64,000 bases of DNA from a virus (lineage: Duplodnaviria > Caudoviricetes), in IMG/VR virus record IMGVR_UViG_3300028048_000057, positions 97,443-161,442 of that record; one strand, given 5' to 3'. Below are positions 40,447 through 49,510 of the stretch, one piece after another. The position numbers and the translations under genes are program-made. Numbering within the stretch: the stretch's first letter is position 1; each line of letters opens with the position of its first letter. The notes under the pieces were generated by a model. The model saw only the letters and a list, made by a program, of their open reading frames with translations, was not told the DNA's origin and searched no databases.

Positions 40447-41815
40447 AAAAGAAAAAATAAATTTAGATTCTATTGCTGGTTATTTTGAGGAAAAAGAAGA
40501 ACTCAAAAAGATTATCAATTTAATTCAAAATTATGATAGATATAAAGAAATGGGAATTCAAGTACCTAGAGGAATTATTTTACAAGGCCCTCCAGGATGT
40601 GGAAAAACCTTAATAGCAAGTGTTATTGCAAATGAATGTAATGTCCCATTCTTCTCATTTAAAGCAGGTTCAGATGGAACTAAAGTTCTTGGAGAGTTAA
40701 AAAGAATCTATAGAGAAGCCGAAAAAGTAACTCCTTCTATTGTTTATCTTGATGAATTAGTTGAATTAGTAACAAATAGAAGATTTGCTAGTGATACCTC
40801 AAGAGCATGCTTACAATTTCTTTTAACTAAGTTAGATGGAGTTCAAAAAGGAATGGGGGTTTTAACTATTGCTTCTACTAATGCTTATGATGACTTACCT
40901 ATTGCTTTATTAAGAAGCGGAAGAATGGATAAAAAACTTAAGATTGATTTACCAGATGCTCAAAGTAGAGAAGAAATTTTAAAATTTTACACTAAAAAAT
41001 TTCCTATTTTTGATAAATTAAATTTAAAAATATTAGGAATAAAATTAAATGGAATGTCTGGTGCTGATATTAAAACACTAGTAAATAATGCTTTAATTGA
41101 ATATATTGACCAAAAAGAATATGTAGATGTAGATGATTTCACAAAACTAGTCAATGAAATGAATTTTGAAACTATAGGTAAGAAATGGAAAAGCACTAAA
41201 AGTGTTAAGAAAATTCTTGCTCATGAGGTAGGACATTCTTTAATTAGTTGGGTTTTAGAAGACAATCATGGAAGCATCAGTGCCCTTAGATATGGAGACA
41301 CAGCAGGGTTCACATCTTTTACACCTAAAGTAGATGAAGTTACAGATGAATATGGTGATGAAGAACTTAGTTTTGTATTATCTAAGAAGGATGCTAGAAA
41401 ACAATTTTGCATTGGTTTAGGTGGCATGGCAGGAGAACTTGTTTACTATGGTATTTATGATAGTGGTGTTGGAGGAGATGTTCAACAATTAAGAAACATG
41501 TATAAAGATTTAAGTGAAGTAGGAGTCTATGGAATAAAATATATGACCTTTAGATGGAATTATGATTCTACTTCATTAAAAGAAAAAGAAGAAAAACAAT
41601 TCTTAAAAGAACTAAGAAGAGCACTTAAAAAAGCAGTTAAAATTATTAAAAAATATAAATATTTGGGTAGATATATTATAGATAAGGCTTTAGATAATGA
41701 TGATGCTTTATCAGAAAACCAAATTGATAATATTATTGAAGATTATTTTACAAACAAAAGACAAATTATTAAAAAGTATAAAAAGATTCCTTTAACCTCA
41801 GAGGAGAAAGAATAA
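40433..41815 (+). CDS. Soluble FtsH-like AAA+ zinc protease (M41)
   Basis: PRG..GPPGCGKT, YLDE, ALLRSGRMD, SGADI, AHEVGH, GG..GE, GGD; no transmembrane segment. Confidence 0.88.
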   Translation: MLMPKKEKINLDSIAGYFEEKEELKKIINLIQNYDRYKEMGIQVPRGIILQGPPGCGKTLIASVIANECNVPFFSFKAGSDGTKVLGELKRIYREAEKVTPSIVYLDELVELVTNRRFASDTSRACLQFLLTKLDGVQKGMGVLTIASTNAYDDLPIALLRSGRMDKKLKIDLPDAQSREEILKFYTKKFPIFDKLNLKILGIKLNGMSGADIKTLVNNALIEYIDQKEYVDVDDFTKLVNEMNFETIGKKWKSTKSVKKILAHEVGHSLISWVLEDNHGSISALRYGDTAGFTSFTPKVDEVTDEYGDEELSFVLSKKDARKQFCIGLGGMAGELVYYGIYDSGVGGDVQQLRNMYKDLSEVGVYGIKYMTFRWNYDSTSLKEKEEKQFLKELRRALKKAVKIIKKYKYLGRYIIDKALDNDDALSENQIDNIIEDYFTNKRQIIKKYKKIPLTSEEKE

Positions 41816-41816
41816 T

Positions 41817-42089
41817 ATGAAAACTAAAGAACTTATTATTAAATATTCAGTGTTAAGTGAAACACTAAATGAGATTCAAAGTAGAATAGGTGAAATAGAA
41901 GAAACTATTGATGCCTTAGATGCAACTATAGAACAATCTGAATCTAGAGGACTTAGTCCTAATTTGATTGATGAACTTAGTAAAGCAAGAAATGATTTAG
42001 ATTTAGTAAGATTAAATTTATCCTTAAAAGCAAATGAAATAGAGCATGCTTTATTAAATTTTGAAAGAGTAAGACTTTTAACAATTTAA
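41817..42089 (+). CDS. Coiled-coil hypothetical protein
   Basis: 90-aa ORF. Confidence 0.5.
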   Translation: MKTKELIIKYSVLSETLNEIQSRIGEIEETIDALDATIEQSESRGLSPNLIDELSKARNDLDLVRLNLSLKANEIEHALLNFERVRLLTI

Positions 42090-42098
42090 CAAATTAGT

Positions 42099-42140
42099 TG
42101 CTAAATTTATATACTAGGCTACAAATATTGGTATATAATA
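42099..42140 (+). promoter_or_regulatory. Dual promoter (TGCTAAATTTA plus TATAAT in an inverted repeat) heading the RNA island
   Basis: Same architecture as 47174-47215. Confidence 0.6.
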
Positions 42141-42159
42141 TTATGTAGACCAAGTAAAA

Positions 42160-42236
42160 GGGCTGGCATGTACTAAGGGTAGCGAGCCTCCCTTGCAAGG
42201 AGGCTGTTGTGAGTTCGATTCTCACCTGGTCCACCA
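42160..42236 (+). tRNA. tRNA-Ala(TGC), atypical D-arm
   Basis: G3:U70 pair, A73, CCA; CCTCC-CT TGC AA-GGAGG; GTGAG-TTCGATT-CTCAC. Confidence 0.85.
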
Positions 42237-42240
42237 TTAA

Positions 42241-42560
42241 AGTTAAGAAACACTTAAAGAGTTCAGAGAGTTCTAGATTAATCTCAAGTAAAAATATCTA
42301 GGTGGTCGAGAAGATGACTGTATCACATCTATAAAAAGACAGTGGAGGAGACTAGAGTTAATCTCTAAGCATAAGAAGGAAAACTTGTAAAACCAGTGAC
42401 TAGTTAACACTTATAACTATAGTGGTCCAAAAAGGGGAATCGCCATAAAATACACCTCAATAATTGAAAGGATAAGGTTCAATGGCGGTAGGTGAAGTTT
42501 TGTTTATAACAAGCATATGTATTTGTCCGAGATGACATTAAACTAAATACTTCTTAATTG
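42241..42560 (+). ncRNA. Unassigned ~320-nt structured RNA
   Basis: No ORF of 60 aa or more; termini pair (AGTTAAGAA/TTCTTAATT); several internal hairpins; retains CpG. Confidence 0.55.
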
Positions 42561-42579
42561 AAGAGAATAGGAGATACAT

Positions 42580-42798
42580 ATGTTTGATTACTTAGGATGG
42601 GGCAAACATCTATATTCCTTGGCAGCAACAGGAATTAAATTCAAAGACAAAGAATATACTTCTAGAAAAAGTGCAGAACGTGATATGTATGCATTTATGA
42701 ATAAGCATGGCTTAAGAATTGAAAAAGTATATGATGACAATCATTTTAAAACCTATATTTGCCAAAATGATATTAGATTTTACATTAATAGAATGTAA
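42580..42798 (+). CDS. Small hypothetical protein within the RNA island
   Basis: AGGAGA RBS; 72 aa. Confidence 0.6.
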   Translation: MFDYLGWGKHLYSLAATGIKFKDKEYTSRKSAERDMYAFMNKHGLRIEKVYDDNHFKTYICQNDIRFYINRM

Positions 42799-42842
42799 TC
42801 CCTAGAGGTACCAACTACCTTGAATTAAAACAGTTGGAAAAT

Positions 42843-42916
42843 GCAAATGTTGCATAATGGTAGTGCCCTTGCCTTCCAAGCAAGAGGTGAGAGTTCAATT
42901 CTCTTCATTTGCTCCA
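42843..42916 (+). tRNA. tRNA-Gly(TCC)
   Basis: GCAAATG/CATTTGC-T-CCA; CTTGC-CT TCC AA-GCAAG. Confidence 0.92.
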
Positions 42917-42917
42917 G

Positions 42918-43170
42918 TGCTGTTTCTATGGGTCTTCAGACACTAATAAATCAAAATGACCCACCCATAGGTAATTGGGAAGATTTACCTCCAGAAATTT
43001 GGTCGGCTAGTTGGCACGAACTTGAAAGACACTAAGTGTTGCAACAGACCCACAAGAACTGCAGTGAGTGGGCAAGCACGAGTGATGGACAGAGAATGGG
43101 ATGTTTTGAAAAAGAAACTACGATTGAGTCACCACACTGAGAGCACAAGGTTCACTGGGCAAAGAACAAA
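42918..43170 (+). ncRNA. Unassigned structured RNA between two tRNA-Gly genes
   Basis: Long closing helix 42918-42935/43045-43063; H-type pseudoknot; GC and CpG elevated. Confidence 0.55.
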
Positions 43171-43174
43171 ACAC

Positions 43175-43248
43175 GCAGGTGTAGGACAATGGTAGTCCAT
43201 TTGCTTGCCATGCAAAATATATGGGTCCGATTCCCATCACCTGCTCCA
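43175..43248 (+). tRNA. tRNA-Gly(GCC)
   Basis: GCAGGTG/CACCTGC-T-CCA; TTTGC-TT GCC AT-GCAAA. Confidence 0.9.
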
Positions 43249-43249
43249 T

Positions 43250-43335
43250 CCTCAAAGTGCTGGAAGTTGTGGCACATCTATTCAATTAAGGCTATAGACT
43301 TAGAATAGAAGGGGAGGGGTAAGGTCCCTCTGAGG
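43250..43335 (+). ncRNA. Cloverleaf-like four-way-junction RNA without canonical tRNA loops
   Basis: CCTCA/TGAGG closing GTGCT/GGCAC, TCTATTC/GAATAGA and GAGGGG/TCCCTC arms. Confidence 0.45.
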
Positions 43336-43343
43336 TCTAATAT

Positions 43344-43418
43344 TGCGGGGAAGTGTAACGGTTGCATACTAGGCTCATAACCTAGTGGTAGTAGGTTCAA
43401 TTCCCACCCCCGTAACCA
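43344..43418 (+). tRNA. tRNA-Met(CAT), initiator-like
   Basis: TGCGGGG/CCCCGTA-A-CCA resembles fMet acceptor; CTAGG-CT CAT AA-CCTAG. Confidence 0.85.
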
Positions 43419-43600
43419 TCACACATAAAAAGTGTGCTAAATTATAGTGAGGAAAAGTAACAATGAGAACTATTTTGACCATCAAGAGTATTGAATTAGT
43501 CACATTAGAAAAACATATTTGTGAAGATAATGTGATTTTTGTGCATGGTCAAGATACTTCTTATGAATAACATTAAATAATTATAAAGATGTTAAATTTG

Positions 43601-43628
43601 AGTGCTTGGCTATGCTAGGCACTTTTTT
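43601..43628 (+). terminator. Intrinsic terminator
   Basis: AGTGCTTGGC-tat-GCTAGGCACT followed by T tract. Confidence 0.75.
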
Positions 43629-43637
43629 CTTCTAAAT

Positions 43638-43716
43638 GCTCCCTTAGACGAAATGGTTTACAGTCACAACCCTTTCAAGGTTGTATTTGTGGGTTCGAGT
43701 CCCATAGGGAGTACCA
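43638..43716 (+). tRNA. tRNA-Glu(TTC)
   Basis: GCTCCCT/AGGGAGT-A-CCA; CAACC-CT TTC AA-GGTTG. Confidence 0.92.
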
Positions 43717-43760
43717 AGAGTATTGCCTTAACACATGCTAAATTAAATGAGGAACAATTT

Positions 43761-44429
43761 ATGTACAAATTAAATTTAGACAACAATTATTTAAAACCTA
43801 ATTATGAATCTTGTCCTTATTGTAATAAAATGTGTAAAAACAAAAATAGTTTTAAACAGCATGTGAGATTATGTAAAGAAAATCCAAATAGACAAGAATC
43901 TAATTTAAAAAATCAAGGTTGGTCTAAAGGACTAACTAAAGACACAGACATTAGAGTGTATAATCACTCTAAATATGAAAAGACTTTCTTTGAAAAGCAT
44001 AGTGGATACTTTAAAGGAAAGAAGCACACACAAGAAAGTAAAGATAAAATATCTAAGGGGAGGAAAAAATATTTACAAGAAAATCCACAAAAAGTTCCAT
44101 ACATTCTAAACCATTCATCCAAAAGTAGTTATCCAGAACAATACTTTAAAGAATTATTTGATTTAGAACAAATACCTTTACAGTATCATTTACAAATTTC
44201 TAAATATGAATTAGATTTCTACAATCTAGAAAATAAAATAGATTTAGAGATTGATGGGGAACAACATTATTTAGATTCTAAAATAGCAAAAAGTGATTTA
44301 GAAAGAACAAAATATCTTGAATCTCTTGGATGGACTGTGATTAGAATTAGATGGTCTAATTATCAAAAATTAACTTTAGAAGAGAAAAAGAAGTTAATTA
44401 ATGATATTAAAGAATTAATGCACCCATAA
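43761..44429 (+). mobile_element. Free-standing homing endonuclease (C2HC zinc finger + NUMOD3 + DUF559/Vsr-like nuclease)
   Basis: CPYC..H..C, GWSKG, FKGKKHTQESK.KIS, S.PE, LDFY..EIDGEQH..D..R..L...GW.VIRIRW; start reassigned to ATG 43761 after GAGG. Confidence 0.8.
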
Positions 44430-44495
44430 CTCAGTTGGTAGAGTAATAGACTTTTAATCTATGAGTCGGTGGTTCGAGCCCACCTGGGTGTACCA
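44420..44495 (+). tRNA. tRNA-Lys(TTT)
   Basis: GCACCCA/TGGGTGT-A-CCA; ATAGA-CT TTT AA-TCTAT. Confidence 0.93.
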
Positions 44496-44572
44496 TCCTC
44501 CATAGCAAAATTGGATAATGCACCTGACTCTTAATCAGGGGATTCTAGATTCAAGTTCTAGTGGAGGAACCA
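44496..44572 (+). tRNA. tRNA-Lys(CTT)
   Basis: TCCTCCA/TGGAGGA-A-CCA; CCTGA-CT CTT AA-TCAGG. Confidence 0.88.
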
Positions 44573-44576
44573 ATAA

Positions 44577-44652
44577 GGTCTCTTAGTTTATTTGGTAAAA
44601 CATTCCCCTGATAAGGGAAAGAGGGTTGGTTCAAAACCAGCAGAGACCACCA
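44577..44652 (+). tRNA. tRNA-Ile(GAT)
   Basis: GGTCTCT/AGAGACC-A-CCA; TTCCC-CT GAT AA-GGGAA. Confidence 0.92.
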
Positions 44653-44685
44653 AACACCTAAATAAGGTGTATAATAACATAGATT

Positions 44686-44762
44686 GCCCTTGTAGCATCA
44701 ATTGGTAGATGTCCTCACTTGTAATGAGGCTGTTGGGAGTTCAAGTCTCTCCAAGGGCACCA
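44686..44762 (+). tRNA. tRNA-Thr(TGT)
   Basis: GCCCTTG/CAAGGGC-A-CCA; CCTCA-CT TGT AA-TGAGG. Confidence 0.92.
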
Positions 44763-44764
44763 TC

Positions 44765-44830
44765 CATCTCTATGATTGGGTTCAACTCCCTTTGGCCGAG
44801 GAAGGCTTGGCAAGTGGTGTAGTAGAGATG
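44765..44830 (+). ncRNA. Permuted tRNA-like small RNA (T-loop before a D-loop-like segment)
   Basis: CATCTCTAT/GTAGAGATG closing GGG-TTCAACT-CCC, GCCGAG/CTTGGC and AGTGGTGTA. Confidence 0.5.
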
Positions 44831-44836
44831 CCTTAT

Positions 44837-44921
44837 GCTCAAGTGTTGGAACTGGTATACATCACTGACTTAAAATCAGTGGCCGAGAGGATTAAGGGTT
44901 CAAATCCCTTCTTGAGCACCA
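44837..44921 (+). tRNA. tRNA-Leu(TAA)
   Basis: GCTCAAG/CTTGAGC-A-CCA; ACTGA-CT TAA AA-TCAGT; variable arm. Confidence 0.92.
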
Positions 44922-44924
44922 TAT

Positions 44925-44998
44925 GGGTCCTTGGCATATCGGTAGTGCAGTTGGCTGTTAACCAACCTAGGTAGGTTCAACTCCTTCAGGTCCCGCCA
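44925..44998 (+). tRNA. tRNA-Asn(GTT)
   Basis: GGGTCCT/AGGTCCC-G-CCA; GTTGG-CT GTT AA-CCAAC. Confidence 0.9.
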
Positions 44999-45020
44999 TT
45001 AACCAATCAACAATTAATTT

Positions 45021-45097
45021 GGGCCATTGGTGCAGAGGTCAAACATGTCTCCTTGTCACGGAGAAGAACAGGGGTTCGAATCCCCTATGGCCCGCCA
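45021..45097 (+). tRNA. tRNA-Asp(GTC)
   Basis: GGGCCAT/ATGGCCC-G-CCA; TCTCC-TT GTC AC-GGAGA. Confidence 0.92.
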
Positions 45098-45098
45098 A

Positions 45099-45173
45099 GT
45101 ATAGTTGGCTGATTGGCTTAGGCAGTGGTCTGCAACACCATTTAGTAGGGTTCGATTCCCTAACTATACTCCA
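45099..45173 (+). tRNA. tRNA-Cys(GCA)
   Basis: GTATAGT/ACTATAC-T-CCA (U73); GTGGT-CT GCA AC-ACCAT. Confidence 0.9.
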
Positions 45174-45176
45174 TTT

Positions 45177-45252
45177 ACACCTTTAACTCAGTTGGGAGAG
45201 TGCCACCCCTACAAGATGGAAGTCATAGGTTCAAGTCCTATAAGGTGTACCA
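45177..45252 (+). tRNA. tRNA-Val(TAC) with C33 and an anticodon-stem mismatch
   Basis: ACACCTT/AAGGTGT-A-CCA; CCACC-CC TAC AA-GATGG. Confidence 0.8.
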
Positions 45253-45253
45253 T

Positions 45254-45327
45254 GTGACATTAGCACAAAATTAGTGCACTTGACTGTGAATCAAGGGAAG
45301 AGGGAGAGTTACCCTCATGTCACCCCA
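45254..45327 (+). tRNA. tRNA-His(GTG), atypical T- and D-loops, no encoded G-1
   Basis: GTGACAT/ATGTCAC-C-CCA; CTTGA-CT GTG AA-TCAAG; T-loop AGAGTTA. Confidence 0.85.
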
Positions 45328-45337
45328 TATATTTATT

Positions 45338-45428
45338 GGAGGATTACTCAAGTGGTTGAAGAGGGTGGTTTGCTAAACCACTAGTGGAAGAAATTCTAGC
45401 ATAGGTTCAAATCCTATATCCTCCGCCA
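45338..45428 (+). tRNA. tRNA-Ser(GCT)
   Basis: GGAGGAT/ATCCTCC-G-CCA; GTGGT-TT GCT AA-ACCAC; long variable arm. Confidence 0.93.
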
Positions 45429-45459
45429 TAAAATATTTATTGACAAGTATTTATTATTC

Positions 45460-45684
45460 ATGTATATTATTGGTATGGATATAATTATTTTTCATGAAAT
45501 TAGTATTGTGTTATTATGCTTGATTTATATTCCTAGCATGATTCCTTTCGTTCAATATATCTTATTAAAGAATAGAAAAGAATGTAATAGAAACAAATCT
45601 AAAGAAAAACTATGTTTGACTCTTTGGTTATCATCTATTATAATATTTATTGCAAATGTATTATTATTAATTGCTATTGATTAG
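45460..45684 (+). CDS. Small two-TM membrane protein
   Basis: Two hydrophobic stretches; TTGACA promoter at 45440. Confidence 0.5.
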   Translation: MYIIGMDIIIFHEISIVLLCLIYIPSMIPFVQYILLKNRKECNRNKSKEKLCLTLWLSSIIIFIANVLLLIAID

Positions 45685-45700
45685 GAGATAATTATAAAAT

Positions 45701-46474
45701 ATGATTAAACATTTATATGATGAAATTGCAAAAAGATGGTTAACAAATTGTGATTCTATTTATATCTATAGTGACACACATTTTTCTGATGTTGAATTAT
45801 ATGATATGAGAGGCCTTTTAAATATACCAGATGATATAGTATTTGCTAAAGAACAAGGTGATTCTAGAAGTTATGACTTATATGTTGAAGAAAGAGTTGA
45901 AGTTTTAGATGAGATGCAGATTAAAAACATTAATTCCAAAGCAGGTAAAAACTCTTGTCTCATCATCTTAGGTGATGTTGGTAATATAGAATGTGTTAAG
46001 AAATTAAAAGCAAAATATAAAATTCTTATTATGGGAAATCATGATAAAGGTGCTTCTAATTATTTAATGAGATGGGATGCTAAATGGTGGCCAGATTACG
46101 ATATGGAGGAACTTAAGAAAGATGGGCACACTGAAGTATTAGATTATCCTCCTGGTGCTATTTTATATGGAAAAAGAATTAACGAAGGATTATTTGATGA
46201 AGTCTACGAAGGCCCTTTAATGATTAATGATAGAGTTATTTTATCTCATGAACCTATTAATGTTCCTAATTATATGTTTAATATTCATGGTCATGTTCAT
46301 AAAGCAGATTATAAAGGTGATTCACATCATTTAAATTGCTGTGCAGAAGCCATTAACTACACCCCTATTAATCTTATTAATTTATTGCAAAAAGGGTTAT
46401 TAAAAGATATTGATTCTATTCATAGAATGACTATTGATTTAGCAACAACTAAGAAAAAGAAAAGAACAAAATAA
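45701..46474 (+). CDS. Calcineurin-like metallophosphoesterase
   Basis: SDTHF, LGDVG, GNHD, SHEP, HGHVH. Confidence 0.85.
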   Translation: MIKHLYDEIAKRWLTNCDSIYIYSDTHFSDVELYDMRGLLNIPDDIVFAKEQGDSRSYDLYVEERVEVLDEMQIKNINSKAGKNSCLIILGDVGNIECVKKLKAKYKILIMGNHDKGASNYLMRWDAKWWPDYDMEELKKDGHTEVLDYPPGAILYGKRINEGLFDEVYEGPLMINDRVILSHEPINVPNYMFNIHGHVHKADYKGDSHHLNCCAEAINYTPINLINLLQKGLLKDIDSIHRMTIDLATTKKKKRTK

Positions 46475-46503
46475 GTGTATAATAAATAAAGAGGATTATT
46501 ATT

Positions 46504-46704
46504 ATGATTAATGTTGAATCAAAAATTAGATGTTATGAAGTTAATGATGAAGAAATTCAGGGGTTAGATTATCCAACAATTAAAATCACTAATCATTGGA
46601 ATGAGCATGAATTTGTAGTTCTAGTAATTAATGGAAATACATACACTGTTTCTGCTAAAGATTTAAAAGCAGCAATTGAAAATGCAACTAATGTAGCAAG
46701 ATAA
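46504..46704 (+). CDS. Small hypothetical protein
   Basis: GTGTATAAT motif and GAGG RBS. Confidence 0.55.
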   Translation: MINVESKIRCYEVNDEEIQGLDYPTIKITNHWNEHEFVVLVINGNTYTVSAKDLKAAIENATNVAR

Positions 46705-46775
46705 AAAAAATAATTGACAAATAAAAATTACAAAATTAAAATAGTAAATGTAGAATAGGAGGATACAATTAAATT

Positions 46776-47042
46776 ATGAATCTACAAGAATTATTTTCAA
46801 AAATGGCTAAGCCTAGCAAACCTTATGTATTAGGAAGTGGAAAACCTAATAAGTACAACAAAACCTCTTTAGATGGACATAGAGTCCTTAAAAATGGTTC
46901 TATTGTTGTGAGAACAATTAATGTTGCTAAACCTGATGTTAAAAATCCAGGTAAAAAAGTTCCAACTCCAGTTGATGCTTCTTATGATGCTTCATTAATT
47001 AAAAGTTACAAAAAAGCATTATCTTCAAAGGTAAAGGCTTAA
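46776..47042 (+). CDS. Small basic protein
   Basis: AGGAGG RBS; TTGACA at 46714; Lys/Pro-rich. Confidence 0.6.
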   Translation: MNLQELFSKMAKPSKPYVLGSGKPNKYNKTSLDGHRVLKNGSIVVRTINVAKPDVKNPGKKVPTPVDASYDASLIKSYKKALSSKVKA

Positions 47043-47050
47043 TTAAAATT

Positions 47051-47179
47051 ATGACAAGAAAAGAATATGTTGAAAAAAGGTTACTAGAATTATCTTATAA
47101 AGAAGATAAGGATAGTGTAGACCTTAAAGAAGAAAAAAGACTTGAAGAAGAATTAAAAACTCTTTTAAGTGATTGCTAA
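47051..47179 (+). CDS. 42-aa charged protein (not in ORF track)
   Basis: MTRKEYVEKRLL..SDC; phage-like codon usage. Confidence 0.45.
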   Translation: MTRKEYVEKRLLELSYKEDKDSVDLKEEKRLEEELKTLLSDC

Positions 47180-47215
47180 ATTTATTACACTAGGAAGAAT
47201 ATCTAGTGTATAATA
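47174..47215 (+). promoter_or_regulatory. Dual promoter (TGCTAAATTTA + GTGTATAAT) for the giant ncRNA
   Basis: Both recurrent motifs present; TACACTAG/CTAGTGTA inverted repeat. Confidence 0.65.
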
Positions 47216-47216
47216 G

Positions 47217-48455
47217 ATTGAACCATCATTAGAGATGTTGACCTTAGGTAACTGATTCTAGTGGTAAGTTCAATTAAAATAAGGGCGTAATTCCACCGAT
47301 AACGGAATCATAATACAATAAGTTTAGGGGAAGATACCATTGAGAAATTACCGACCAGACATAAGGTCAATGGATGAAAATCACTAAACGAAATGGGATG
47401 TGGGTCGGTTGCCACCCTAAACTCCAGCCAAGTGGAGAAAGTAGAATAGGCTACGAACAAATCTTGGATACCTCATCTATAGTGCCTAATTGTGTAAGAC
47501 TAAACTATCGGGCCCACTAAAATTCTTTGAGAGCATAATGACTCAAGGACCCGAGCATGCGATAGATTAAAAGGTAGGATAATATAGGACCTTCCTTAAT
47601 TAATTTATTTTCTTAAGCATTACCTCCAAGTAATTACTTAATGATATCTTAAGTGAGGGAACTAATTATCATGCGTGGTAATTAAGTTTAAAAGATTACT
47701 TTAAATTGGTAGATACATCTTAATTGATGTGTGCTATATAGGTATCATTAACCTTGATAATTATTGGATAGATGAAATACTCAATTCTAATAAATATCTA
47801 AAGAGGTGGTTCTCTAATAAAATTGAGAATTTCTCCATGGCGATAGGATATTCATGGTGAGCCTTAATAGTTTATGAATAGGCAATAGCACAAAATAGTA
47901 AGAGAATCTATTAAATATGTGCATGGTCTAGTGTAGCCGAAAATACACTAATAGTTCCACCACCCAGTACTGAATGTTGTTTGATGGTATTGAAGACTAA
48001 CTTGCGTAGAAAGCCTTCTCATCAAGTAAGTGGACTACCTCAGCCTATCATCTTTTAAGAAATAATTACGTCGCCGTCTTAGGACATTGCGTGGTGAAAG
48101 CCCATACCAGCATCCTGATTGGGAGCCTTAAAAGTTTGGCTTATAACCATTAGTGATAGGTAATTAACCACATGCTATTTGCAAATACACCTATGGGAAC
48201 ATAGGTTATGTGGTAAAAAGAGACTAAAGCAGGGGAACTCCAGATAGTTGGTCTGCAAAAGAGGGTTGTGCCTCTTATAGGTCCAGAGGATGACGGACTG
48301 TGGTTCTAATCCCAGACAAATGGTTCTTGGACCATAACTAACCAAGTGTTCAAGTAATATGTAAACCGCCAGTAATGGTTGAGGTAGCAGGGCCTCAGTT
48401 AAAAGGAGTCTAAATATGAAAGAAGAGGAAGGAAAACCTCGTAAACCACTTTTTT
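47217..48455 (+). ncRNA. Giant (~1.24 kb) multi-domain structured ncRNA, GOLLD/ROOL-like context
   Basis: No ORF of 60 aa or more in any frame; about 30 helices by eye including long-range pairs and pseudoknots; GC and CpG elevated; promoter at 5' end, T tract at 3' end. Confidence 0.8.
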
Positions 48456-48499
48456 AAAAAATTAGACATCAATTAATAAAAGTTGGTGTATAATATAAT

Positions 48500-48620
48500 G
48501 AGTAAGAGTTTAGTGGGTGAACCTAAACTAACTACCAAAAAAACAAAAAGATGATTTTCATTCATGTTTTATTGCCTCCTTTCTATAGTTCACCAAAGTG
48601 GCTTGAGTGCCACTTTTTTT
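48500..48620 (+). ncRNA. Small RNA exposing anti-SD/anti-start sequence
   Basis: GTGTATAAT at 48486; GGTGAAC/GTTCACC stem enclosing CATGTTTTATTGCCTCCTTTCT; terminator AAGTGGC/GCCACTT plus T tract. Confidence 0.6.
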
Positions 48621-48659
48621 ATTCTTAACTAAAATTTTAAAATAACAATGCTAAAATTA

Positions 48660-48758
48660 ATGTGGTATTTAATTATCACTTTATTTAGGCTATGACTATG
48701 AGAATACTTATCCTTTCAATCTCATGGTTTAGTAAGGACTCCTGAGGGGGTCTTTTTT
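48660..48758 (+). ncRNA. Second small RNA with a CU-rich (anti-SD-like) loop
   Basis: TGCTAAAATTA at 48649; GACTATGAGA/TCTCATGGTT stem with loop containing CTTATCCTTTC; terminator AGGACTCC/GGGGTCTT plus T tract. Confidence 0.5.
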
Positions 48759-48810
48759 ATTTTTTACACTTTAATTTAAGGCATTATTTTATTTTTTACA
48801 CTTTAATTTA
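48755..48810. repeat. 24-bp direct repeat x2 (TTTTATTTTTTACACTTTAATTTA), period 32
   Basis: Copies at 48755-48778 and 48787-48810. Confidence 0.8.
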
Positions 48811-48820
48811 TTTTTTTTTA

Positions 48821-48850
48821 TTGACAAATTTATATAATCAAGTTTATACT
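48821..48850 (+). promoter_or_regulatory. Sigma70/SigA early promoter
   Basis: TTGACA-18-TATACT. Confidence 0.7.
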
Positions 48851-48883
48851 AATGTCAGATGAATCACATTGGAGGTATTTACT

Positions 48884-49474
48884 ATGAAAACTAAAAATTT
48901 AGATAAAAATCAAACTATTCAACTTATTGATTCTTGTAAAAAGAGAATTGATTTTAATAATAAACTTAATGCTTTTGCAAGAAAATTTATGAAAGATAGG
49001 GGTCTTGATGATTGGCATCAATTTAATGGATATCATGATGAACCAACACAAGAAATGAAAGATTCCTTATTAGATATTTTAAATAACAACACTTTGTGTG
49101 ATTTATCTTGGATGTCTAATGATTTAAAATTAGAATATCTTAAGTATACTGGTGCTATCTTTGGACAAGTTTATGGTCCTCATGTTAATGATTATGTAAG
49201 AAGAGATTTACATGACCTTGAATCTCATTTAGAAGAAATTGAGCATAGTGCAAATAATAGAGAAGAAGAAAATAGTGAATTTAGAGTTGAGAGAGATTTA
49301 GCCTCAAATAGATTAAATCTTTATTTTGATGAAATTCCTAATGAAGAGGCTAGAAGAATTCTTAAAAAGAATGGATTTAGGTATTCTCCTTATCTTGGTG
49401 CTTGGACTAGACAACTTACTCAAAATGCTGAAAATTCATTAAATAAAATTAAACAAGAAATGGGAATTAATTAA
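48884..49474 (+). CDS. Early protein with a C-terminal domain seen in phage/plasmid polyvalent proteins
   Basis: NRL.LYFD.IP.EEAR..LK.NGFRYSP...AW.RQLT.NA; GGAGGT RBS before ATG 48884. Confidence 0.55.
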   Translation: MKTKNLDKNQTIQLIDSCKKRIDFNNKLNAFARKFMKDRGLDDWHQFNGYHDEPTQEMKDSLLDILNNNTLCDLSWMSNDLKLEYLKYTGAIFGQVYGPHVNDYVRRDLHDLESHLEEIEHSANNREEENSEFRVERDLASNRLNLYFDEIPNEEARRILKKNGFRYSPYLGAWTRQLTQNAENSLNKIKQEMGIN

Positions 49475-49481
49475 AATTATG

Positions 49482-49510
49482 TTGACATCTATTTACAAAA
49501 AGTGTATACT
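49482..49510 (+). promoter_or_regulatory. Sigma70/SigA early promoter
   Basis: TTGACA-17-TATACT. Confidence 0.75.

What the first reader, a model, noticed from the sequence alone, without database searches (positions are those of the whole stretch)
42241..42560. ~320-nt structured RNA sharing motifs with the giant RNA
Seen: ends pair (AGTTAAGAA/TTCTTAATT); internal helices TCTAGAT/ATCTAGG, ACTGT/ACAGT, TAGAG/CTCTA, TAGTTA/TAACTA, ATCGCCAT/ATGGCGGT and TGTC/GACA. It carries AAG-AAGGAAAA-CTT-GTAAAACCA (from 42373), matching the giant RNA's 3' end GAGG-AAGGAAAA-CCTC-GTAAACCA (from 48425) with an identical loop on a different stem. It also carries GGTCGAGAAGATGAC versus GGTCCAGAGGATGAC (48280). 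Inference: a shared tertiary or protein-binding module; the two RNAs may be related or act together. No tmRNA, RNase P or intron hallmarks were found.
Basis: partly seen in the sequence, partly recalled or inferred. Interest (0 to 1): 0.72.

Follow-up and report, generated by a model that had tools for sequence, protein, structure and literature searches.

The report
Composite phage leader with shared hairpins
The "320-nt RNA" is most likely not one folded RNA but the transcribed leader between a phage tRNA gene and a conserved small gene, and it carries two short hairpin modules: one also found in the neighbouring giant RNA, the other an uncatalogued hairpin widespread in phages and some RNA viruses.

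Summary
The sequence facts hold. Every helix listed exists at its coordinates. Both motifs shared with the giant RNA are real and beyond chance.

The reading as one ~320-nt structured RNA is not supported:
- The fold is no more stable than shuffles (z +0.58).
- No Rfam family matches.
- Relatives lack the stretch. G001 and G002 have only a 70-85-nt 5'UTR at this position.

The stretch 42237-42579 runs from tRNA-Ala to a conserved 72-aa gene. I found no terminator-like site between the promoter-like cassette and 43600. It has two parts:
- The last ~60 nt are the gene's conserved 5'UTR, with a hairpin (UGUC-CGAGAU-GACA) also seen in three relatives.
- The upstream ~290 nt are lineage-specific. 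They carry a similar "box" hairpin, then the AAGGAAAA-loop hairpin with its GUAAAACC tail, in the same order as in the giant RNA and its homologue L302.

The AAGGAAAA hairpin is a widespread viral motif absent from Rfam:
- 41 aligned copies have covarying stems.
- 41 phage promoter cassettes place it about 10 nt after the -10 box.
- Other copies follow tRNA 3' ends or sit in RNA-virus untranslated regions.

I read it as a leader module that binds a protein or the ribosome, or stabilises the RNA. That function is inferred, not shown.

The scan had already noted the giant RNA and this RNA island on the same genome.

The parts
42098..42139 (+). Promoter-like cassette TTGCTAAATTTAT...TATAAT that drives tRNA-Ala, the leader and the 72-aa gene
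   Evidence: Sequence; promoter scan hit 42086-42115. The same TGCTAAATTA...TATAATAT cassette precedes the orthologous gene in G001 and G002, the giant RNA, and an HNH ORF in G006.
42160..42236 (+). tRNA-Ala(UGC), directly upstream of the finding
   Evidence: ARAGORN. Rfam tRNA scores 27.3 bits, just under the gathering score of 29. 79% identical to a tRNA-Ala(UGC) in G006.
42237..42523 (+). Lineage-specific part of the leader (~290 nt), absent at this position in relatives; carries box1 and the AAGGAAAA hairpin
   Evidence: No ORF of 50 aa or more. No match in G001, G002 or G006. G001 and G002 go from promoter to gene in 70-85 nt.
42305..42318 (+).
   Evidence: A loose box regex hits the 161-kb genome three times only, all on the + strand (42305, 42525, 48281); shuffles give 0.63.
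42373..42396 (+). AAGGAAAA-loop hairpin (AAG / loop / CUU) plus tail GUAAAACCAG
   Evidence: It scores 34.4 bits with model R1, but it was a training row. Family evidence.
42524..42550 (+). Box2: conserved 5'UTR hairpin UGUC-CGAGAU-GACA plus tail UUAAACUAAAUAC
   Evidence: Orthologous UTRs carry GGGGTC-CGAAAT-GACCCC+TGTTAAAAACTAC (G001), GGGGTC-CGAAAC-GACCCC+ACAAAAACTAC (G002) and TGTC-CTAAGCAT-GACG+TTAAACTGC (G006). Alignment A5.
42570..42573 (+). Shine-Dalgarno GGAG of the 72-aa gene
   Evidence: Sequence; 6 nt before the ATG at 42580.
42580..42798 (+). Conserved 72-aa phage gene of unknown function whose leader is the finding
   Evidence: ORF. 22 homologues at 51-97% identity. Syntenic copies in G001 and G002 and a distant one in G006. 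AlphaFold pLDDT 82, beta-beta-alpha-beta-beta-beta. No Pfam or PHROG match and no clear fold match.
48280..48294 (+). Box of the giant RNA, GGUCCAGAGGAUGAC
   Evidence: Identical in L302.
48425..48449 (+). AAGGAAAA hairpin (GAGG/CCUC) plus GUAAACCAC at the 3' end of the giant RNA
   Evidence: The closing helix GUGG(UU)/(AA)CCAC becomes GCGG/CCGC in L302.

Best explanation
Window 42237-42579 is the transcribed spacer and 5' leader between tRNA-Ala(UGC) and a conserved 72-aa phage gene. No terminator-like site lies between the promoter-like cassette at about 42100 and 43600, so they are probably made as one transcript (inferred).

It is composite. The last ~60 nt are the gene's ancestral 5'UTR: a hairpin UGUC-CGAGAU-GACA, an A-rich UUAAACU tail and the Shine-Dalgarno sequence, kept in relatives of 29-53% GC. 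The upstream ~290 nt are a lineage-specific addition. They bring in a second, similar box hairpin (GUC-GAGAAGAU-GAC) and an AAGGAAAA-loop hairpin with a GUAAAACC tail. The same two elements occur in the same order in the giant RNA family.

Inferred mechanism: these are autonomous, sequence-specific recognition hairpins, not parts of one tertiary fold. The AAGGAAAA hairpin normally sits at or near a new RNA 5' end: about 10 nt after the -10 box of phage promoters, or just behind a tRNA 3' end. I therefore read it as a leader module that protects and/or marks the RNA released by tRNA processing. It could do so by binding a protein or the 30S subunit, since its loop contains the SD-like AAGGA. 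The box hairpin next to the ribosome-binding site looks like a translational operator.

Shown: the anatomy, the conservation, the covariation and the genomic contexts. Inferred: transcription, processing and every functional step.
For: Context:
- tRNA-Ala ends at 42236. ORF 42580 has a GGAG ribosome-binding site.
- No terminator-like site lies between 42090 and 43600.

The gene and its UTR are conserved; the insert is not:
- The 72-aa gene is syntenic after the FtsH-like gene in G001 (49% identity) and G002 (39%). A distant member is in G006 (HMM E 3e-8).
- All four UTRs have GUC-N6-8-GAC plus a (U)UAAA(A)ACU tail plus SD. The pair outside the GUC/GAC core is U-A, G-C, G-C or U-G.
- G001 and G002 reach the gene 70-85 nt after the same promoter cassette.
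- No match to 42237-42579 exists in G001, G002 or G006.

Box hairpins: three in 161 kb, all in these ORF-free stretches, against 0.63 expected. The giant RNA's box is identical in L302.

AAGGAAAA hairpin:
- Of 84 unique IMG/VR pattern hits, 36 have a stem of 3 bp or more. By my arithmetic about 14% would do so by chance, with G-U allowed.
- Stem and A0-3CC tail go together: odds ratio 13.8, p 4e-5.
- In 41 aligned copies 95.7% of cells pair, 55 cells change on both sides, and 0 of 500 shuffles reach this. The fourth pair was not selected for, yet pairs in 34 of 41 with 6 pair types.
- Model R1 finds unseen copies in G005 and G006.
- 41 promoter cassettes place the stem 8-14 nt (mode 10) after the -10 hexamer.
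- Copies lie 13 nt after tRNA-Lys in G003 and 13 nt after tRNA-Ala(AGC) in G006.

The module is portable. It lies in the 5' third of L302 and of G006's RNA but at the 3' end of the otherwise collinear giant RNA.
Against: - No expression data, so transcript ends and processing are inferred.
- In the finding the AAGGAAAA hairpin lies 137 nt behind the tRNA and about 190 nt before the ATG. It is neither at a predicted 5' end nor next to the ribosome-binding site.
- In the giant RNA it is 3'-terminal, and in L302 and G002 it is internal. In picorna-like RNA viruses it lies in 3'-proximal or intergenic regions. One single 5'-end function therefore does not fit every context.
- The close relatives of this phage (FtsH homologues at 69-81% identity) could not be fetched, so the ~290-nt insert may be conserved and structured in them.
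- Two local helices are thermodynamically strong (0.91-0.96) and remain unexplained.
- Rows of the hairpin alignment were chosen for stems of 3 bp or more, so part of the covariation count is circular.
Confidence: 0.55

Rival explanations
1. One reading: a stand-alone, globally folded ~320-nt non-coding RNA, cut out between tRNA-Ala and the next gene. It would be a reduced paralogue of the giant RNA and work with it.
For: Two motifs are shared in the same order with the giant RNA and L302. It sits in a tRNA island, as other phage ncRNAs do. Two very stable local helices exist. G003 has three ORF-free stretches in its tRNA islands that carry the same hairpin; two of them are 277- and 316-nt spacers that open with it.
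Against: Fold z is +0.58. The terminal helix has probability 0.27. Nothing beyond the motifs aligns to the giant RNA, L302, G002 or the G003 RNAs. The stretch is absent from G001, G002 and G006. Its 3' end is demonstrably the conserved UTR of the next gene. There is no excess complementarity to the giant RNA. The G003 spacers are not well folded either (z +0.19 and -1.5).
Confidence: 0.17
2. RNA-protein circuit: the conserved 72-aa protein binds the box hairpin GUC-N6-8-GAC. It would repress its own translation at box2 and also bind box1 and the giant RNA's box, linking the gene, the leader and the giant RNA.
For: A box-like hairpin lies 35-45 nt before the start codon of this gene family in four phages of very different GC content. 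The only three boxes in G000 are box1, box2 and the giant RNA's box. In G006 a distant member of the gene family lies about 800 nt upstream of its giant-family RNA. Autoregulatory operators of this design are established for T4 RegA, gp32 and gp43 (my knowledge).
Against: No RNA-binding domain or fold was recognised. Pfam and PHROGs are empty; Foldseek gives nothing at E 0.001 or better; the best VIA-align hit is Z 5.5, to a crenarchaeal ribosomal protein, below the level that means anything. No homologue lies in the 6-kb L302 locus. G006's giant-family RNA has no clear box. The hairpin core GUC/GAC never varies, so it offers no covariation.
Confidence: 0.2
3. The stretch is functionally neutral filler. 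tRNA-Ala and an adjacent piece of giant-RNA-like sequence were recombined into an old 5'UTR, and the motif matches are decaying remnants.
For: The ~290 nt are lineage-specific. tRNA islands in these phages are reshuffled: an HNH endonuclease gene follows the homologous tRNA-Ala in G006, and a DUF559/REase-like ORF lies in this island. The module sits at different places in related RNAs.
Against: The loop and tail of the hairpin are intact to the letter and its stem is closed with different base pairs from the giant RNA's copy (AAG/CUU against GAGG/CCUC). That is how functional copies of this motif differ everywhere. Box1 also keeps its stem and the loop's AU end.
Confidence: 0.13
4. The AAGGAAAA hairpin plus its linear tail is a nut-like site for processive antitermination. 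It would be loaded just after promoters and inside untranslated tRNA and ncRNA operons to keep RNA polymerase resistant to Rho.
For: It sits at a fixed distance behind 41 promoters. It occurs in untranslated tRNA islands and giant RNAs. A purine-rich loop plus a linear box recalls lambda boxB and boxA (my knowledge).
Against: The same hairpin and tail occur, often in tandem, in RNA-dependent-RNA-polymerase-encoding picorna-like contigs, where there is no DNA-templated transcription. G000 uses it only twice, and not behind its own promoters.
Confidence: 0.07

Closest known systems
5'-terminal stabiliser elements of bacterial and phage mRNAs: ompA 5' stem-loop, phage SP82 polypurine 5' stabiliser, cryIIIA STAB-SD (named from my own knowledge, not tested here)
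   Same: A short stem-loop and/or an SD-like polypurine tract (the loop contains AAGGA). It lies within a few nt of the predicted transcript start in 41 phage promoter cassettes and directly behind tRNA 3' ends. It is independent of the downstream gene.
   Different: Loop and tail are invariant across phages of 29-58% GC and also occur in RNA viruses. In the finding itself the hairpin is 137 nt from the tRNA end. No stability data exist.
Translational operators of phage RNA-binding proteins: T4 gp43 operator hairpin with an 8-nt loop, T4 RegA and gp32 sites, MS2 coat-protein hairpin (my knowledge)
   Same: Box2 is a small hairpin with a conserved loop just upstream of the ribosome-binding site of a conserved small phage gene, kept in four phages.
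   Different: The binding protein is unknown. Extra copies lie far from any start codon, in the leader and in the giant RNA.
Giant tRNA-island RNA of this phage (47217-48455) and its homologues L302 and G006; GOLLD and ROOL as the known class of large phage RNAs
   Same: Shares the box and the AAGGAAAA hairpin in the same order, and the tRNA-island location.
   Different: None of the collinear core blocks of that family is present. It is four times shorter. GOLLD and ROOL models do not match either RNA at E up to 10.
Lambda nut sites (boxA plus boxB hairpin)
   Same: A promoter-proximal hairpin with a purine-rich loop plus a conserved linear element.
   Different: The order is reversed, the loop has 8 nt, and the motif is present in RNA viruses. 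Nothing was tested functionally.

Membership tests
AAGGAAAA-loop hairpin motif (defined here; alignment A3, model R1) | Stem of 3-4 bp of free sequence closing an invariant 8-nt loop AAGGAAAA | tested here: met
   42373-42386 is AAG / AAGGAAAA / CUU. Family stems covary. This copy was a training row of R1, so its 34.4 bits hold by construction.
AAGGAAAA-loop hairpin motif (defined here; alignment A3, model R1) | 3' tail G/U-W-AAA(A)-CC directly after the stem | tested here: met
   GUAAAACCAG at 42387-42396. Stem and tail are associated in an unselected hit set: odds ratio 13.8, p 4e-5.
AAGGAAAA-loop hairpin motif (defined here; alignment A3, model R1) | Position at a new RNA 5' end (about 10 nt after the -10 box, or 15 nt or less after a tRNA) | tested here: not met
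   The hairpin starts 137 nt after tRNA-Ala, with no strong promoter match before it. This is a typical context, not a strict definition: L302, G002 and the giant RNA also hold internal or 3' copies.
Giant tRNA-island RNA family (giant RNA 47217-48455, L302, G006 RNA) | Collinear conserved core blocks, for example AATAGTTCCACCACCC..TACTGAATGTTGTTTGA and GGGGAACTCCAG | tested here: not met
   blastn with word size 7 finds six collinear blocks between the giant RNA and L302 but only the hairpin between the small stretch and any member. Local alignment score is 30 against shuffles of 23.4 +/- 2.7, maximum 36.
Giant tRNA-island RNA family (giant RNA 47217-48455, L302, G006 RNA) | Box GGUCSAGARGAUGAC followed downstream by the AAGGAAAA hairpin | tested here: met
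   Box at 42304 and hairpin at 42373, as in the giant RNA and L302. G006's RNA has the hairpin but no clear box.
Rfam families (GOLLD, ROOL, tmRNA, RNase P, group I/II introns, 6S, riboswitches) | Covariance-model match at or near the gathering score | tested here: not met
   cmscan at gathering scores and at E up to 10 on 41500-49500, and on 42237-42579 alone, gives only noise hits of 12-16.5 bits. ARAGORN finds no tmRNA.
Conserved 5'UTR of the 72-aa gene family | Hairpin GUC-N6-8-GAC plus (U)UAAA(A)ACU tail, 35-45 nt before the start codon, behind the TGCTAAATT..TATAAT cassette | tested here: met
   42524-42550 against G001, G002 and G006. The GUC/GAC core is invariant, and only the adjoining pair varies: U-A, G-C or U-G.
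CsrA/RsmA-sponge sRNAs (CsrB, RsmZ type) | Many hairpins with a GGA-containing loop in one RNA | tested here: not met
   Only one AAGGA loop lies in the stretch, and R1 finds only two in the genome.

The most novel reading that the evidence does not exclude
The AAGGAAAA hairpin and the box hairpin are two uncatalogued recognition elements of one viral RNA-protein system. The box would be the operator of the conserved 72-aa protein, which also docks on the giant tRNA-island RNA. The AAGGAAAA hairpin would be a universal ribosome- or nuclease-facing leader module shared by DNA phages and picorna-like RNA viruses. Because some of those RNA-virus copies are followed by strong Shine-Dalgarno sequences, those viruses might infect bacteria.
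Probability: 0.12. Interest if true: 0.85.

Novelty: new variant of a known kind. Interest (0 to 1): 0.52.

Why it matters
First, it corrects an over-reading. An ORF-free, hairpin-rich stretch in a phage tRNA island need not be one structured RNA.

Second, following the shared motif turned up a compact, sequence-invariant hairpin (AAGGAAAA loop plus A-rich CC tail). Its stems covary in 41 aligned copies and Rfam 15 has no match for it. It recurs at phage transcript starts, behind tRNA genes, inside an undescribed giant RNA family and in RNA-virus untranslated regions. A motif kept to the letter across genomes of 29-58% GC implies a conserved partner such as the ribosome, a nuclease or a protein. 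It is short enough to test directly in reporters.

Third, the operator-like hairpin before a conserved small gene gives a concrete handle on a possible protein partner of the giant RNA.

Tried and rejected
**Searches that found no relative of the stretch**
- blastn of the stretch and of the giant RNA against 50,697 phage records: only tRNA or noise hits.
- tblastn of the FtsH-like protein against the same records: nothing above 32% identity.
- The search for related loci with the 72-aa ORF: nothing.
- The search for related loci with the FtsH-like protein: only G001 and G002.
Contigs of the close relatives P0002-P0009 (69-81% identity) and of the 72-aa homologues could therefore not be read.

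**Pattern scans that gave only chance, mostly in-ORF hits**
- GGTCNAGANGATGACGGAC.
- AAGGAAAA..GTAAA..CCAGTGA, apart from L094.
- Six of the seven metagenome hits.
- A prokaryote-genome scan: 26 of 121 hits have stems of 3 bp or more, near chance, and nearly all lie in open frames. The motif is therefore essentially viral, with about three prophage-like leaders.

**Analyses that were uninformative or negative**
- k-mer sharing among seven hairpin-bearing RNAs showed nothing robust beyond the hairpin.
- MAFFT of eight flanks conserved only the hairpin and tail.
- Full-text search for AAGGAAAA with stem-loop and phage found nothing relevant.
- G003 spacers are not unusually stable.
- Duplex folding of the stretch against the giant RNA is no better than shuffles.
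- Fold searches of the 72-aa protein gave no clear match.

**Readings considered and dropped**
- preQ1-I or another small pseudoknot riboswitch: the loop is all purine, only a 2-bp GG:CC pseudoknot is possible, and Rfam gives no hit.
- tRNA-like T-loop in the giant RNA's module: the stem is not supported in L302.
- Hidden small ORF behind the hairpin: there is no start codon.

Full report
**Setting.** The window is the last 64 kb of a 161-kb uncultured virus record (G000, 29% GC). The finding lies at the head of a tRNA island.
- ARAGORN calls tRNA-Ala(UGC) at 42160-42236. Rfam's tRNA model gives 27.3 bits, just under its threshold.
- ORF 42580-42798 (72 aa) follows, with a GGAG ribosome-binding site.
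- A promoter-like cassette TTGCTAAATTTAT...TATAAT lies at about 42098-42139.
- No terminator-like site occurs on the + strand before 43600.
- The "RNA" is therefore exactly the 343-nt ORF-free interval 42237-42579 inside what is probably one transcript.

**The observation.**
- Both shared motifs are beyond chance. GGTCSAGARGATGAC occurs at 42304 and 48280 against 0.14 expected. The hairpin-plus-tail pattern occurs at 42376 and 48429 against 0.13 expected.
- The fold is no more stable than dinucleotide shuffles: -58.3 against -61.2 +/- 5.0 kcal/mol, z +0.58.
- In the ensemble only TAGTTA/TAACTA (0.96), ATCGCCAT/ATGGCGGT (0.91) and TGTC/GACA (0.60) are likely. The end-to-end helix reaches 0.27 and ACTGT/ACAGT 0.00.
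- Rfam 15 has nothing, either at gathering scores or at E up to 10 on the stretch alone.

**Relatives.**
- The FtsH-like gene upstream led to two distant relatives, G001 (45% GC) and G002 (53% GC).
- The 72-aa gene belongs to a conserved family of 22 homologues. It is syntenic in G001 and G002.
- In both, the same TGCTAAATTA...TATAATAT cassette is followed by only 70-85 nt of 5'UTR. That UTR holds a hairpin GGGGUC-CGAAAY-GACCCC, an AAAAACUAC tract and the Shine-Dalgarno sequence.
- A third phage, G006, has a distant member of the gene family (HMM E 3e-8) behind UGUC-CUAAGCAU-GACG plus UUAAACUGC.
- In G000 the equivalent is UGUC-CGAGAU-GACA plus UUAAACUAAAUAC at 42524-42550.
- tRNA-Ala and the ~290 nt behind it are additions. 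No match to them exists in G001, G002 or G006.
- In G006 the homologous tRNA-Ala(UGC) (79% identity) is followed by a promoter and an HNH endonuclease gene instead.

**The box.**
It also resembles the giant RNA's GUC-CAGAGGAU-GAC.
- A loose expression for this shape hits the whole 161-kb genome three times only: at 42305, 42525 and 48281, all on the + strand. Shuffles give 0.63.

**The AAGGAAAA hairpin.**
- Pattern scans of IMG/VR returned many coding-sequence chance hits plus a clear enriched class. Of 84 unique hits, 36 have a stem of 3 bp or more and 24 have 4 bp. By my arithmetic about 14% and 5% would do so by chance, with G-U allowed.
- In a hit set that did not demand the CC tail, stem and tail are associated: odds ratio 13.8, p 4e-5.
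- In 41 aligned copies the four stem pairs are standard in 95.7% of cells, with 55 cells changed on both sides. The covariation score is 0.89 against 0.17 in shuffles, and 0 of 500 shuffles reach it. Sliding the partner by 1-3 columns drops pairing to 15-46%.
- Rows were chosen for 3 bp or more, so part of this is circular. The fourth pair was not selected and still pairs in 34 of 41 with six pair types.
- A covariance model (R1) finds two copies in all of G000, one in G002, none in G001 and three in G003. It also finds copies it was not trained on in G005 and G006.
- Prokaryote genomes show no stem enrichment: 26 of 121 hits, nearly all in open frames. The motif is essentially viral.

**Contexts of the hairpin.**
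- *Promoter cassettes.* 41 distinct phage cassettes read TTGAC(A/T)-N16-18-TAYRMT, then 8-14 nt (mode 10), the hairpin, GAAAACCAGAAAGGA and an ATG. The downstream ORFs are unrelated, and there are several cassettes per contig with different stems.
- *tRNA islands.* Copies lie 13 nt after tRNA-Lys(CUU) and right after a tRNA-like unit in G003, each opening a 280-315-nt ORF-free spacer. Another lies 154 nt after tRNA-Val in G003, and another 13 nt after tRNA-Ala(AGC) in G006, in an 85-nt spacer.
- *Large RNAs.* Copies occur in the giant RNA; in L302, an ~850-nt homologue with its own promoter and terminator; in G006's homologue; and in a 1-kb ORF-free stretch of G002.
- *RNA viruses.* Picorna-like contigs that encode an RNA-dependent RNA polymerase carry it, often in tandem, near the 3' end or between ORFs.

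**Relation to the giant RNA.**
- L302 and the giant RNA share six collinear blocks. The box-plus-hairpin segment, however, lies in the 5' third of L302 and at the 3' end of the giant RNA. It behaves as a portable module.
- Its closing helix covaries: GUGG/CCAC against GCGG/CCGC.
- The finding holds a third copy of that pair of elements, with different stems and spacing, and none of the family's core blocks.
- I found no excess complementarity between the two RNAs.

**Mechanism.**
- Shown: anatomy, conservation and context.
- Inferred: the hairpins are autonomous recognition elements.
- The usual placement of the AAGGAAAA hairpin at new 5' ends, and the SD-like AAGGA in its loop, fit a protective or ribosome- or protein-binding leader module.
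- Its internal and 3' copies, and its presence in RNA viruses, show that this cannot be the whole story.
- Box2 next to the ribosome-binding site looks like a translational operator. The 72-aa protein is the obvious candidate binder, but its predicted beta-beta-alpha-beta-beta-beta fold (pLDDT 82) has no clear match: Foldseek finds nothing at E 0.001 or better, and the best VIA-align Z is 5.5.

**Earlier notes.** The scan had already noted the giant RNA as a new family and this RNA island, both on this same genome. I used these notes as leads. I independently found the homologues L302 and G006, and confirmed that Rfam has no match.

**Verdict.** The single-RNA reading is not supported. The "shared module" idea is supported and extended. 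I found no catalogued match for the motif itself, and it is worth testing.

Noticed in passing
L302:4530-5390 (- strand), compared with window 47217-48455: L302 is an ~850-nt homologue of the giant RNA with its own TTGACA/TATAAT promoter and terminator, upstream of 10 tRNAs. Six blocks are collinear with the giant RNA. The box-plus-hairpin segment lies in the 5' third here and at the 3' end in the window: a domain at two positions on one scaffold.
   Followed up: partly
L480:6690-8070 and L480:10013-10097 (G006): A third giant-family RNA, with the AAGGAAAA hairpin at L480:6988. There is also an 85-nt spacer between tRNA-Ala(AGC) and tRNA-Pro that consists of the hairpin plus one further stem-loop (CAGCTT...AAGCTG).
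   Followed up: partly
L210, L072, L004, L034/L055/L234, L038 (IMG/VR contigs of 5-9 kb): Picorna-like contigs carry one to three AAGGAAAA hairpins with the same tail, near the 3' end or between ORFs; Pfam found an RdRP domain in L038 and L034. In L210 one copy is followed by GGAGGA and an ATG, an arrangement like the phage leaders. I could not say what these viruses infect.
   Followed up: partly
L236, L272, L222, L262, L267, L202, L239, L256, L275, L288, L192: A group of gut and rumen phage contigs reuses one cassette before many unrelated genes: TTAACTTGAC-N17-TATAAT, about 10 nt, the AAGGAAAA hairpin, GAAAACCAGAAAGGA, then ATG. There are up to four copies per contig, each with a different stem.
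   Followed up: partly
L119:1115-2150 (G002): A 1-kb ORF-free, GC-rich stretch behind the same promoter cassette holds GGGG-AAGGAAAA-CCCC-GAAAACCA. It lies between genes whose G000 orthologues are adjacent at G000:51.2-52.6 kb, outside the window. A large RNA gene is therefore present at a different genomic position in a relative.
   Followed up: partly
L294:1100-1175 (- strand, G003): A tRNA-like unit with acceptor, D and anticodon arms but a degenerate T arm, not called by ARAGORN, lies directly before one AAGGAAAA hairpin.
   Followed up: no
window 43602-44429: A 275-aa ORF with DUF559/REase-like and zinc-finger matches sits inside the tRNA island. Its listed GTG start overlaps tRNA-Glu (43638-43716), so the true start is probably later. 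It may be a homing-type endonuclease. G006 has an HNH gene at the equivalent tRNA-Ala.
   Followed up: no
window 42098-42139 and 47170-47215; L002:11560-11620; L003:11565-11610; L480:9124-9150: The cassette TGCTAAATT(A/T)...TATAATAT is conserved before tRNA and ncRNA units and small genes in four phages of 29-53% GC. The distance between its two parts varies, so the first part may be an activator site rather than a -35 box.
   Followed up: no
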